From a virus (Duplodnaviria > Heunggongvirae > Uroviricota > Caudoviricetes), in IMG/VR virus record IMGVR_UViG_2698536392_000016: DNA of 13,952 nt, one strand, 5' to 3'. Of this stretch, positions 6,001-9,000 are shown piece by piece. Made by a program: the position numbers. Numbering within the stretch: position 1 is the first letter of the stretch; every line of letters begins with the position of its first letter.

Positions 6001-9000
6001 TGAATAAGTTCACGAATCGTTGTAGGCTTGATCAGGCATTCGTAGTACTTCCCCATCCAGGCTGCGAACGGGGTGCCGGAAAGTCCAAGAACCCTGATGT
6101 CTCTGTCCCGGATAACCTCAAGTAACGCACGACGCTTCATGTGTGCTTCATCGATGATCAGCAGATCGATGTTGTCAGGAAACTCACGACGGATCAGCGT
6201 GTCGGCACTGGCAATCTGAATCAGTCGTGACGGGTCATAGTTAGGGTGATCACGCCATACAAAACTGATTTCTTCCCACGGCAAACCGTATTCGGTGAAA
6301 CGTTCCGCTGTCTGGTTCAGCAGGATGGTGTACGGACAGACAAACATCACTCGCATACCACGTTCAACCATTCCGGCGGTGACGAATGCTGCAAGACCAG
6401 TTTTGCCAGAGCCAGTGGGTGCGTACATCAGGTACGTGCGATGCTGTTTCCACTGGTGCCGCAGCTGGTTTAAACCGCGCTCCTGAGCAAAGTTTGGGGT
6501 GATTTTCAGCATGACGCCCCCTTGCCATTCGCCGGGATGATATCGATCCCAGCATCGCTATAACTGGTCAGTTTCTTTGGCATTCGAAGCAACACAAAGC
6601 CTTCAGTGCCACGACGTGCCAATTCACGCAATTTCATGACTGAGCGGGGTCGAGGAGAGCTACGATCGATCTCAATAGCCACACTCCCACCAGTTTTTGC
6701 TGTTGCGAGAATATCAACACGGAAATTTCTGCCATCGATTCTTACTGTGACATTGCTTGCCACATGCATCCCCTGTGACTCAAGGATCGTTACAACATCA
6801 GCCAGAAAGCTGTAACGCTCCTCTGTTCTCAGTGGTACAGTGCTCAGTGTACGGATCAGTGCCGATTTGGTTTCTGCTGACATAGCTTATCACTCAATAG
6901 TTAGCTCGATAATCATTTCACCAGAAACTATCGCGCGCTTATACAGTGATCTACCTAACCTATGTACCTGCCTTCTGGCCTAGGCCAAGGGATACAGGCC
7001 TTACCAACGACTCCACCCCCTTACCCCCTCCTCGCTTCCTTTCAGGAAATTAGTTGCACGTGAAATTATCTCTAGCGCAACTAACCGCCATCATGGTGTC
7101 GGGGGAAACTTCCGTACCGCTACTGGCGAAAGCATCCAGCCACGGCTGGCTCTCGCGTACTTCTGGACATACACCCGTAACCGGGTGTTGGCGCTCCGTC
7201 TTGCCCTGTTGCCCTTCCTGAACGATACAGGCTCCTTGTCCCACTCTTCCTGGTACACTCTCGCGTACTCTGCTGCAATTTTTACCCGGGTGGTCGGGTC
7301 TAGCTGTAACAATTGCTCCTGTATCCAGTCCCGATCAGCATCACAGTACTGCTCGGGCATAACCGTTTTGATTTGCCTGTTCACTCACACCTCCGATGGG
7401 CTGTGTGTCCAGGATTAATCATCGCCTCTTACGAACGCAGGGAACGGACGAACCTCTTCCGCCTCAACTGTGCCGTCATCAAAGGTTTTGACGTATATTT
7501 CTCGTCCGACGAGAAGCGCTTTACTGATTGCACTCTGCGCCACGCCAAAGTCCTTAGCGGCTTTCTTTTGGCCGAACCTGTATACGTAATCAGCCAGGGT
7601 CTCTTTTTTCATCGCCATAACTGACTCCTTCAAAATGCCCATATCATTACGCACAGTTATTAAAATGTCAACACCGCAGATATTTCATTACATATAACCA
7701 AAGGTGATATGGTATGAACATGAAAAAGAAACCGTTAACCCCTGAGCAACTGGAAGACGCCAAGCGTCTGAAAAGTATTTTTAACGCTAAAAAGAAAGAG
7801 TTAGGCCTGTCGCAGGAATCATTAGCCTATGAATTAGGTGTTACCCAAAGCGCTGTTAATCAGCTAATGGCTGGCATCAACGCCATAAATGCCAGCCACG
7901 CAGCACAGCTTGCTAAGATACTGAATGTAAAGGTCGGAGATTTCAGTCCCAGCCTGGCAAAATCTATTGCAGAAATGGCGCTCGCAATTGAAGAGCCATT
8001 AACTCGTGTCCCCGCTTACGAATATCCGTTACTCTCCTGCGTACAAGCTGGCGCATTCTCAATGGATGATATTTCGTACACCGCAAAAGATGCGATTAAA
8101 TGGATCTCCACCACCACAAAAGCCAGTGACAGGTCGTTCTGGCTGGAGGTCAAGGGGCATTCAATGACCGCACCGCAGGGTGGTAAACCCAGCTTCCCTG
8201 AAGGTATGCTGATACTCGTTGACCCTGAACGGGAAATCGAGGATGGCGATTTTTGCGTGGCCCGAATGAACGGCGATGAATTTACCTTCAAACGATTCAT
8301 TCGTGAGAGCGGTAAAGCGTACCTGGAGCCGCTCAACCCACGATTCGACATGATTGAGTGTAACGAAAACTGCCAGTTTGTCGGAAAGGTCATCAAATCG
8401 CAGTGGAATGATGAGACTTTTGATTGAGCTCACAGAGTGATTTGACATCCTTCACGCCTGAAGAATGTGGAGGATGTCAAAAGCACGTTGGCATCATCAT
8501 GCCACGTAAAGAGGATTAGTTATGCTTCAAAAGCTAGACGTCGCAGACAGCGTGCGTCGCGAGCTGTCTCCCCGTACCGCGCGTAAACACAAAGCAGAGT
8601 TCGGCCAGTTCATGACGCCTTCTGGCGTGGCCCGTTTTATGGCCTCCTTGTTTCCACCGAGCACAATGAAAACTTGCCGTCTACTGGACGCAGGCGCTGG
8701 TGTAGGCGCACTGTCTTGCGCCTTCCTCGACCGTTGGCTGGTTGGCGAGTTTGGCTTTGAGTCTGTCGAGGCAACAGCCTACGAAATCGACAAAAAGCTG
8801 TGTGGTCACCTTGCGAAGCACTTAACCGGGTACAGGAGAGTGACGCCCCGCATCATCGAAGGGGATTATATTGAGCTGGCAACCGCCGAAGGTCTACAGG
8901 ATCGAGGTTATACCCATGCAATACTTAATCCGCCTTACAAGAAGATCAATAGCCAGTCAGCCCACCGGCAGGCTCTTCGCACTGTCGGTATCGAGACGGT

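What the first reader, a model, noticed from the sequence alone, without database searches (positions are those of the whole stretch)
8428..8521. Two inverted repeats in the 95-bp spacer between cI and the methyltransferase
TTGACATCC (8442..8450) and GGATGTCAA (8472..8480) form a 9-bp inverted repeat with a 21-nt loop, and TGGCAT-catc-ATGCCA (8489..8504) lies about 18 nt upstream of the methyltransferase start. No controller (C) protein gene is present. These could be an RNA structure modulating readthrough from cI, or an operator for a host or phage factor that times endonuclease expression. The TTGACA inside the first repeat has no convincing -10.
Basis: seen in the sequence. Interest (0 to 1): 0.45.

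Follow-up and report, generated by a model that had tools for sequence, protein, structure and literature searches.

The report
Transposon-end relic beside R-M cassette edge
The two hairpins between the phage repressor gene and the methyltransferase gene are inherited pieces of two mobile DNAs, a decayed transposon-end palindrome and the edge of an imported restriction-modification cassette, and they mark where the two were joined, not a purpose-built switch.

Summary
Both inverted repeats are real: IR1 at 8441-8455/8467-8481 and IR2 at 8489-8494/8499-8504. The spacer is a recombination joint, not a dedicated control region.

IR1 (unit 8442-8480) is a decayed copy of a ~40-bp palindrome. That palindrome occurs in more than 3,500 plasmids, in many phages, and in viral contigs of 32-69% GC. 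Its canonical form matches the right-end stem-loop plus 'GGAGGATGTCAA' terminus of IS200/IS605-family (TnpB/omega-RNA) transposons. Three different cargos behind this cI begin exactly after its terminal TCAA.

From 8481 onward the DNA is the edge of a 2.47-kb PstI-type M-R cassette (the known EcoGIII system). It is about 85% identical to cassettes in Thauera and Gallionellaceae, where this stretch is the 3' end of a resolvase gene. IR2 was inherited from there, and compensatory changes have kept it a hairpin.

I found no promoter, terminator, C gene or cI-operator motif. M-R most likely ride on cI read-through, with R translationally coupled to M. Any regulatory effect of either hairpin is untested.

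The parts
7714..8427 (+). cI repressor gene (237 aa, HTH_3 + Peptidase_S24)
   Evidence: annotated as cI in phage P13374
8428..8441 (+). Backbone sequence shared by all cargo variants behind this cI (GAGCTCACAGAGTGAT). The variants without IR1 diverge after 8441.
8442..8480 (.). IR1: a 39-bp decayed palindromic unit, TTGACATCCTTCACG-loop-GTGGAGGATGTCAA, derived from an IS200/IS605-family right end. The terminal TCAA lies at 8477-8480.
   Evidence: structure; family; link to TnpB/omega-RNA right ends
8481..8521 (+). 5' edge of the imported M-R cassette: a relic of the 3' end of a resolvase gene plus the M ribosome-binding site (GAGGA at 8511-8515)
8485..8507 (+). IR2: a small hairpin (core 8489-8494/8499-8504, extension ACG/CGT with a bulged T8488) immediately 5' of the M ribosome-binding site
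8522..9991 (+). M gene (PstI/BsuBI-type N6-adenine methyltransferase; M.EcoGIII, CTGCAG)
   Evidence: PMC6602927
9988..10941 (+). R gene (BsuBI_PstI_RE). Its ATG overlaps the M stop codon (ATGA), so R is probably translationally coupled to M.
8481..10949 (+). Extent of the horizontally acquired M-R cassette, about 85% nt identity to a Thauera plasmid and a Gallionellaceae MAG
10960..10981 (+). Backbone intrinsic terminator at the right edge of the cargo slot. It is shared with phages that carry other cargo (their homology resumes at 10962/10963).

Best explanation
The 95-bp spacer is a composite recombination joint made of two inherited hairpins.

(1) IR1 (8442-8480) is a decayed, symmetric, single-hairpin derivative of the right end of an IS200/IS605-family (TnpB/omega-RNA) transposon. 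It consists of the right-end stem-loop and its GGAGGATG-TCAA tail, plus the mirror image of that tail. It belongs to one variant of the phage backbone. Its outer TCAA is the exact point where three different cargo DNAs begin.

(2) From 8481 the DNA is the left edge of a 2.47-kb PstI-type M-R cassette (EcoGIII). The cassette came from a resolvase-M-R unit that circulates in Proteobacteria. The region holding IR2 is a relic of the 3' end of the resolvase gene. It has been kept as a small hairpin directly 5' of the M ribosome-binding site.

How it works (inferred, not shown): the cassette brought no promoter. M and R are therefore transcribed in lysogens by read-through from cI, as rexAB is in lambda. 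Transcription passes through both hairpins, neither of which has a U-tract, and stops at the backbone terminator at 10960-10981. M comes before R through gene order and the ATGA overlap, not through a C protein. IR1 probably acts at most as an intercistronic mRNA stability or processing hairpin. IR2 probably acts as a 5'-UTR hairpin that insulates or stabilises the M translation start.
For: Structure.

IR1 is a discrete unit with breakpoints at both feet. Prophages with the same cI (93-99% nt) fall into three groups. Some keep the hairpin in front of a different cargo, which starts right after GGATGTCAA| (L002, L003, L017, L020). Some keep it in front of the R-M cassette. Others lack it and diverge at 8441|8442 (L004-L006).

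IR1 belongs to a family. Near-identical 40-nt palindromes lie after trbC, after ccdB, next to fecIR and in a P1-like plasmid. They occur at 5,860 places in 3,563 PLSDB plasmids. They also occur in viral contigs of 32-69% GC, with compensatory changes in the inner stem.

Link to IS200/IS605. Canonical members match the 3' hairpin and tail of Rfam HgcC and sot0042. These RNAs carry the 'RE-like UUCA tetraloop' of IS1341-type tnpB elements and PATEs (PMC4615843). The motif '...CCCCGnCCTTTAGGnCGGGGAGGATGTCAA' occurs at least 117 times in IMG/VR. In 53 cases a 200-535-aa reading frame ends 13-450 nt upstream on the same strand; some of these are not tnpB. All four ORFs that I tested are TnpB (OrfB_IS605 + Cas12f1-like_TNB). 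One contig holds three copies of a 1.39-kb tnpB element that ends in this motif.

Cassette. Nucleotide homology to L039/L040 runs 8481-10949. Upstream of M in those loci is a complete 189-aa resolvase, and the 3' end of that gene aligns with 8481 onward.

IR2. 92% of cells are paired. Three pairs show changes on both sides, and the covariation score is above all 500 shuffles. The hairpin is retained where the resolvase ORF is gone (window, L057, L170) and is replaced by a longer hairpin in L167.

No promoter-like site or + strand terminator lies in the spacer. The R-M system is active in lysogens (PMC6602927).
Against: No transcript data were available, so co-transcription with cI and any effect of the hairpins on RNA are inferred. 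The window copy of IR1 is decayed in its apical part and itself gives no Rfam hit; its identity rests on the outer arms, the loop, and intermediates such as L200. The symmetric right-end/right-end palindrome is not the left-end plus right-end architecture of described PATEs, and I could not demonstrate mobility or find an empty site. IR2 lies in coding sequence in its native context, and the sequences are related, so part of its conservation and covariation could come from codon constraints or shared ancestry. In the P1-like locus the homology break lies 18-27 nt beyond the hairpin, not at its foot.
Confidence: 0.65

Rival explanations
1. IR1 and/or IR2 form a dedicated post-transcriptional control device for the R-M system. 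The hairpins would attenuate or process the cI read-through transcript so that M and R are made at low, ordered levels without a C protein.
For: Both hairpins fold stably on the sense strand. The single IR1 mismatch is G.U on the + strand but A.C on the - strand (-22 vs -17.8 kcal/mol). IR2 covaries and stays next to the M ribosome-binding site in several contexts. In the R-M-bearing phages compared, the stems are unchanged while the loop and the bulge vary (L013/L014, L016, L033).
Against: The IR1 sequence is shared with unrelated loci that carry no R-M system, and with other cargos behind the same cI. It is absent from other cargo variants. Neither hairpin has a U-tract. No expression data exist.
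Confidence: 0.2
2. The repeats are DNA operators for a dimeric protein (cI, a host factor, or in the native cassette the resolvase) that times M/R transcription.
For: Both are palindromic. IR2 (TGGCATcatcATGCCA) has operator-like size, and in native cassettes it sits beside a gene for an HTH protein.
Against: The ACCGC/GCGGT-type operator motifs seen at OR and OL are absent from the spacer. There is no promoter here for an operator to control. The phage has no resolvase next to M, yet IR2 pairing is maintained by compensatory changes, and its arm sequence changes (CGGCGT to TGGCAT) while pairing is kept. IR1 arms are 21 nt apart and its inner-stem sequence varies freely in the family with pairing kept, which fits a folded strand rather than a duplex site.
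Confidence: 0.05
3. TTGACA in IR1 is the -35 box of an M-specific promoter.
For: A perfect TTGACA lies at 8442-8447.
Against: There is no acceptable -10 at 16-18 nt (sequence ATGTGG). TTGACA is an invariant part of the transposon-end palindrome consensus in genomes of 32-69% GC, and it appears on both strands pointing inward.
Confidence: 0.03
4. The IR1-type palindrome is an active agent of cargo exchange: a mobile mini-element, or a hairpin-stimulated or TnpA/TnpB-targeted break point. Under this reading it captured the R-M cassette.
For: Breakpoints fall exactly at both feet of the unit, and three cargos start after TCAA|. Copies also sit at module joints in a P1-like plasmid and beside another R-M system in an IncK plasmid. 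The loop is flipped between two homologous loci. Copies often abut or supply stop codons.
Against: No empty site or target duplication was found. No tnpA or tnpB lies nearby. The boundaries could simply reflect homologous exchange within conserved flanks.
Confidence: 0.15

Closest known systems
PATEs (palindrome-associated transposable elements) and the 'RE-like tetraloop' motif of IS200/IS605 (IS1341-type tnpB) elements, sotRNA and Rfam HgcC
   Same: Canonical relatives of IR1 carry the same GC-rich stem, the same UUCA/UUUA tetraloop and the same 3' tail as the right end / omega-RNA 3' hairpin (PMC4615843). Like PATEs, they are gene-less remnants of transposon ends. Single-hairpin forms that combine left-end-like and right-end sequence (GCGCCGTAAAAC-hairpin-GGAGGATGTCAA) occur in 933W, HK97 and upstream of stx1 in H-19B.
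   Different: IR1 is a 39-40-bp symmetric palindrome (right-end tail on both strands), not a fused left end plus right end. The window copy is decayed apically. No omega-RNA scaffold, tnpB or tnpA is adjacent, and mobility was not shown.
REP/REPIN elements mobilised by RAYT (Y1 HUH) transposases
   Same: Both are short, dispersed, extragenic hairpins related to IS200/IS605 ends, usually found just after gene ends.
   Different: REPs are chromosome- and species-specific and carry a GTAG motif. This family is on plasmids and phages and spans a very wide GC range. This comparison rests on my own knowledge.
Lambda cI-rexA-rexB immunity-region operon
   Same: A defence cargo sits between cI and the terminator upstream of OL/PL. 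It is on the same strand as cI and has no promoter of its own at its 5' end.
   Different: The cargo here is a type II R-M cassette acquired from a resolvase-linked unit. Co-transcription with cI has not been demonstrated.
C-protein (controller) regulated type II R-M systems (e.g. PvuII, Esp1396I)
   Same: They face the same need to delay R relative to M on entering a new host.
   Different: There is no C gene or C-box here. The M-before-R order is instead achieved by gene order and the ATGA overlap.
EcoGIII (PstI-like R-M of Stx2a phages of O104:H4, O111 and O157)
   Same: These are the same genes: the junction region (8300-8700) is 100% identical to P13374, phiON-2011, PA2 and VT2phi_272. 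The system recognises CTGCAG and is active in lysogens (PMC6602927).
   Different: I found no published description of the cI-M spacer, of the cassette's resolvase-linked origin, or of the transposon-end palindrome.

Membership tests
IS200/IS605-family transposon end / PATE-like relic | Sub-terminal GC-rich stem-loop with a UUCA/UUUA tetraloop, homologous to the right end / omega-RNA 3' hairpin | tested here: inconclusive
   Canonical family members meet this feature. The window copy keeps the outer arms (one mismatch in each 15-nt arm) and a CTGAAG loop, but its apical stem is decayed and it gives no Rfam hit of its own.
IS200/IS605-family transposon end / PATE-like relic | Element terminus of the form ...GGAGGATG-TCAA, with unrelated flanking DNA starting immediately after it | tested here: met
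   TCAA lies at 8477-8480. Three unrelated cargos start at the next base. The same terminus lies 13-150 nt downstream of tnpB stop codons.
IS200/IS605-family transposon end / PATE-like relic | Fused left end plus right end (the PATE definition), or an adjacent tnpA/tnpB | tested here: not met
   The unit is a symmetric right-end/right-end palindrome. It is flanked by cI and M, and none of the ten window ORFs scanned is a transposase.
IS200/IS605-family transposon end / PATE-like relic | TnpA-dependent excision and insertion 3' of a fixed target motif, without target duplication | not testable with these tools
   No target duplication was seen and no empty site was found. Activity needs an experiment.
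Intrinsic (Rho-independent) terminator | GC-rich stem-loop followed by a U-tract on the transcribed strand | tested here: not met
   There is no + strand terminator-like site in 8428-8521. IR1 is followed by AAAGCACG and IR2 by CGTAAAGAGG.
Sigma-70 promoter for M | -35 and -10 hexamers with 16-18 nt spacing | tested here: not met
   The scan found none in the spacer. The -10 position reads ATGTGG.
C-protein controlled R-M system | Small HTH controller gene and C-box upstream of R or C-R | tested here: not met
   There is no ORF between cI and M or between M and R. Relatives carry a resolvase, not a C gene.
Conserved cis-acting RNA hairpin in the M 5' UTR (IR2) | Base pairing maintained by compensatory substitutions across homologous cassettes | tested here: met
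   91.9% of cells are paired. Three pairs show changes on both sides (12 of 500 shuffles reach this). The covariation score is above all 500 shuffles, and slid controls are far lower. Caveat: the sequences are related and the region is partly coding.
PstI/BsuBI-type type II R-M (EcoGIII) | BsuBI_PstI_RE endonuclease plus a gamma-class N6-adenine methyltransferase | tested here: met
   Pfam: BsuBI_PstI_RE E = 4.6e-61; Eco57I-type methylase domain E = 3.3e-9. Published CTGCAG specificity.

The most novel reading that the evidence does not exclude
The ~40-bp palindromes derived from IS200/IS605 right ends are not inert scars. They would be portable recombination joints on enterobacterial phages and plasmids. 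Breaks or strand transfers at their TCAA termini (by TnpA in trans, TnpB-guided cleavage, or hairpin processing) would let unrelated cargo, here a whole R-M cassette, be spliced in precisely behind a resident promoter-proximal gene. That would create defence-gene hot spots such as the slot downstream of cI.
Probability: 0.15. Interest if true: 0.7.

Novelty: new variant of a known kind. Interest (0 to 1): 0.4.

Why it matters
This explains a puzzling spacer in the clinically important Stx2a phages (the O104:H4 outbreak type) as a joint between a transposon-end relic and an imported R-M cassette. The EcoGIII system then appears to have no promoter or controller of its own and to be wired to the repressor operon. 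That bears on when restriction and genome-wide CTGCAG methylation are expressed. It also reveals a widely dispersed mini-palindrome, derived from IS200/IS605 right ends, on plasmids and phages. Copies often lie at gene ends and cargo junctions, including upstream of stx1. This could matter for understanding how defence and virulence cargos are swapped.

Tried and rejected
- **Rfam scan of the window spacer.** Only sub-threshold miRNA-like hits, so no known RNA family for the window copy.
- **Promoter and terminator scan.** Nothing on the + strand in the spacer. The only hit is a - strand terminator-like match at IR2, which I regard as meaningless because no transcription enters from that side.
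- **PstI-site autoregulation.** There is no CTGCAG in the spacer, and only two in the window, which is not unusual. A variant lineage does carry CTGCAG in the IR1 loop; this is one SNP and I did not pursue it.
- **cI operator.** The spacer lacks the ACCGC/GCGGT motifs seen at OR and OL.
- **lambda boxB/nut resemblance.** The IR1 loop (CCUGAAGAA) resembles boxB, but family members have UUCA/UUUA tetraloops in either orientation, so I rejected this.
- **Literature search by sequence string.** It returned only unrelated primers.
- **Conserved neighbour gene around palindrome copies.** None was found in 23 loci.
- **Empty-site or precise-insertion tests in P1-like phages and IncI/K plasmids.** Inconclusive.
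- **PMC10810198.** It concerns a different methyltransferase of phages PA2/PA8 and is not relevant.
- **Fang et al. 2012 (PMC3879109).** Not held in the library.
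Full report
**Context.** The window is the immunity region of an Stx2a-converting phage of the P13374 / phiON-2011 / VT2phi_272 / PA2 type. The stretch 8300-8700 is 100% identical to dozens of such phages and to prophages in 134-147 complete E. coli genomes. The gene order is as follows:
- cro, 7415-7654 on the - strand
- cI, 7714-8427 on the + strand (HTH_3 + Peptidase_S24)
- M, 8522-9991 (Eco57I-type N6-adenine methylase domain)
- R, 9988-10941 (BsuBI/PstI endonuclease)
- an intrinsic terminator, 10960-10981
- lambda-like OL/PL sequences near 11060-11110

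This R-M system is the published EcoGIII. It recognises CTGCAG and is active in lysogens (PMC6602927).

**Observation.** Both repeats are at the stated coordinates.
- IR1 extends to 15 nt (8441-8455 / 8467-8481). As + strand RNA it forms 16 continuous pairs including one G.U, at -22 kcal/mol (z = -5.3; 0 of 200 shuffles fold as well).
- IR2 is 6 + 4 + 6 nt (8489-8504) plus an ACG/CGT extension with one bulge, at -9.8 kcal/mol (z = -2.8).
- The spacer contains no ORF, no promoter-like site and no + strand terminator-like site. Rfam finds nothing meaningful.

**The spacer is a joint between two DNAs.** E. coli prophages with the same cI (93-99% nt identity) carry different cargo downstream. In alignments and BLAST comparisons they fall into three classes:
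- cI-GAT | IR1 | R-M (the window)
- cI-GAT | IR1 | other cargo: L003/L017 carry a 245-aa unknown protein, and L002/L020 carry a rearranged remnant with only the 3' end of R
- cI-GAT | other cargo without IR1: L004-L006 carry HicAB, Panacea-domain proteins and others

The class without IR1 diverges exactly at 8441|8442. The other-cargo classes diverge exactly after GGATGTCAA| at 8480/8481. All classes rejoin the backbone at 10962/10963, the foot of the terminator. IR1 is therefore a discrete unit at the left edge of a hypervariable cargo slot.

**Where the right half comes from.** Close M homologues (up to 88% aa identity) occur in Thauera (on a plasmid), Gallionellaceae, Aeromonas, Serratia, Pseudoxanthomonas and many metagenomes. 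Nucleotide homology to the window runs from 8481 to 10949 at about 85%. In those loci M is preceded, about 10 nt upstream, by a complete 189-191-aa serine recombinase (Resolvase + HTH_7). Its last codons (...YKHVGVITPRQ*) align with window 8481 onward. So 8481-8521 is the retained stub of a resolvase gene plus the M ribosome-binding site, and the phage acquired a resolvase-linked M-R unit that was truncated at 8481.

**IR2 is inherited and maintained.**
- In the native cassettes the same position reads CGGCGT-CATC-ACGCCG.
- The window has TGGCAT-CATC-ATGCCA, which is two compensatory double changes. U.G intermediates exist in other lineages, and the loop varies freely.
- On a 15-sequence alignment, 91.9% of cells are paired and three pairs have changes on both sides (12 of 500 shuffles reach this). 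The covariation score exceeds all 500 shuffles, and slid controls collapse.
- The hairpin persists where the resolvase ORF is gone: the window, L057 (with a 12-bp stem) and L170. In L167 a longer hairpin on the same CGGCG/CGCCG base replaces it.

This argues for a function of the folded strand next to the M ribosome-binding site that does not depend on the resolvase. The caveats are that the sequences are related and that the region is coding in its native context.

**IR1 belongs to a dispersed family.** A 51-nt query around IR1 hits plasmids as well as prophages. The copies examined include:
- the site directly after trbC (L199) and the site directly after ccdB (L203)
- the site next to fecIR in a Klebsiella plasmid (L202, a perfect 19-bp stem)
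- the gap between a tail-fibre assembly gene and the holin gene in a P1-like plasmid (L200)

The consensus TTGACATCCTCCACG-CCCTGAAGGA-CGTGGAGGATGTCAA finds 5,860 places in 3,563 PLSDB plasmids and hundreds of phage records. Exact-arm pattern scans of IMG/VR recover copies in contigs of 32-69% GC. The outer arms are identical, and the inner stems differ by compensatory changes around a TTTA/TTCA (or inverted) loop. In 11 of 18 cases a long ORF ends within 18 nt of the unit, and the TGA of TTGACA often serves as its stop codon. Two homologous loci carry the unit with the loop flipped.

**Identity of the family.**
- Canonical members match the 3' end of Rfam HgcC (CccCGcccUUuAgggCGggGAGGAGGUCAG against CCCCGCCCUUUAGGGCGGGGAGGAUGUCAA) and the 3' end of sot0042. 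Both matches are below the gathering score.
- These RNAs are the transcripts at the 3' end of IS1341-type tnpB genes. Their 'RE-like UUCA tetraloop' is also described in PATEs (PMC4615843). They are now understood as TnpB omega-RNAs (bioRxiv 10.1101/2023.03.14.532601).
- Scanning IMG/VR for GGGGAGGATGTCAA gave at least 117 sites of the form ...GGAATCCCCGnCCTTTAGGnCGGGGAGGATGTCAA|. In 53 of them a 200-535-aa reading frame ends 13-450 nt upstream on the same strand; some of these are clearly not tnpB. All four ORFs that I tested are TnpB (OrfB_IS605 + Cas12f1-like_TNB, three of them also HTH_OrfB_IS605).
- One contig has three copies of a 1.39-kb tnpB element ending in this motif. Another has a ~120-nt gene-less element with left-end and right-end hairpins.
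- Single-hairpin forms with a 5' flank like that seen upstream of one tnpB (L282, taken as left-end-like) and the right-end tail (GCGCCGTAAAAC-hairpin-GGAGGATGTCAA) occur in 933W, after tfa in HK97, and 42 nt upstream of stx1A in H-19B.

IR1 is therefore a decayed, symmetric derivative of an IS200/IS605-family right end: the right-end stem-loop and tail, plus the mirror image of the tail. From my own knowledge, the terminal TCAA matches the IS608-type right-end cleavage tetranucleotide.

**How it most likely works.** Shown here:
- the origins and boundaries of both halves
- the absence of a promoter, terminator, C gene or operator motif
- the ATGA overlap of M and R
- the backbone terminator after R

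Inferred:
- M-R are expressed in lysogens by read-through from cI, analogous to lambda cI-rexA-rexB. Both hairpins are transcribed and neither terminates transcription.
- The M-before-R order comes from gene order and translational coupling.
- IR1 may act as an intercistronic stability or processing hairpin. The only hint of sense-strand selection is that its mismatch is G.U on the mRNA strand but A.C on the other strand.
- IR2 may insulate or stabilise the M translation start.

I put about 0.85 on the origin and structure claims and about 0.4 on the functional ones. Operator and promoter readings are unlikely. A dedicated R-M timing device is possible but unsupported.

**Novelty and verdict.** The R-M system and phage are known. 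The spacer's composite nature, the cassette's resolvase-linked ancestry, and the identification of IR1 as a symmetric single-hairpin derivative of an IS200/IS605 right end were not found in the literature I could search. That palindrome is widespread on enterobacterial plasmids and phages. It differs from described PATEs, which fuse a left end and a right end, so I file it as a new variant of a known kind, of moderate interest. The more exciting possibility remains open but unproven: that these palindromes actively mediate precise cargo capture.

Noticed in passing
window 8457-8465; L013/L014, L119/L120, L244: A lineage of otherwise identical phages has CCTGCAGAA instead of CCTGAAGAA in the IR1 loop. 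This puts a genuine EcoGIII/PstI site (CTGCAG) in the hairpin loop directly upstream of the system's own genes.
   Followed up: partly
L205 (M16625, H-19B) about 42 nt upstream of stx1A; L204 (933W) 2001-2050; L224 (HK97) 1501-1560: A single-hairpin IS200/IS605-end-like element (GCGCCGTAAAAC-hairpin-GGAGGATGTCAA) lies between the Fur box and the stx1A start in H-19B, after the tail genes of 933W, and after tfa in HK97. It may contribute to the stx1 5' UTR.
   Followed up: partly
window 8428-10962 versus L002-L006: The slot between cI and the terminator upstream of OL/PL is a cargo hot spot. Different prophages with the same cI carry a PstI-type R-M system, a 245-aa unknown protein, HicAB, Panacea-domain and partner genes, an SDH-family Clp-fold protease, or small membrane proteins.
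   Followed up: partly
L002 (E. coli G1/2) 3684-4160: This prophage keeps IR1 but has only the last ~300 nt of the R gene (annotated as a 100-aa BsuBI/PstI-family protein) behind 160 nt of unrelated DNA. It looks like a deletion or replacement derivative of the R-M cassette.
   Followed up: no
L382 (plasmid CP088867.1) 1824-4515: In an IncK2/Z plasmid a different type II R-M system (C5 methyltransferase plus endonuclease) lies directly next to the trbC-proximal copy of the same palindrome.
   Followed up: no
L039-L066, L121-L141: The M-R cassette travels with a small serine recombinase (resolvase-M-R) across Beta-, Gamma- and Alphaproteobacteria at 77-88% protein identity, sometimes on plasmids. 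In several loci the resolvase is truncated at different points while the last ~40 nt before M are kept.
   Followed up: partly
L221 2535-2574 versus L222 8092-8131: Two 93%-identical loci carry the palindrome with its central loop and mismatch inverted (flip/flop). This suggests intramolecular recombination between the arms.
   Followed up: partly
window 8480-8495 and 11068-11083: The cassette edge AAAAGCACGTTGGC resembles the OL-proximal AAAAGCACTGGCGG (an 8-nt identical run followed by TGGC). This could be microhomology or chance.
   Followed up: no
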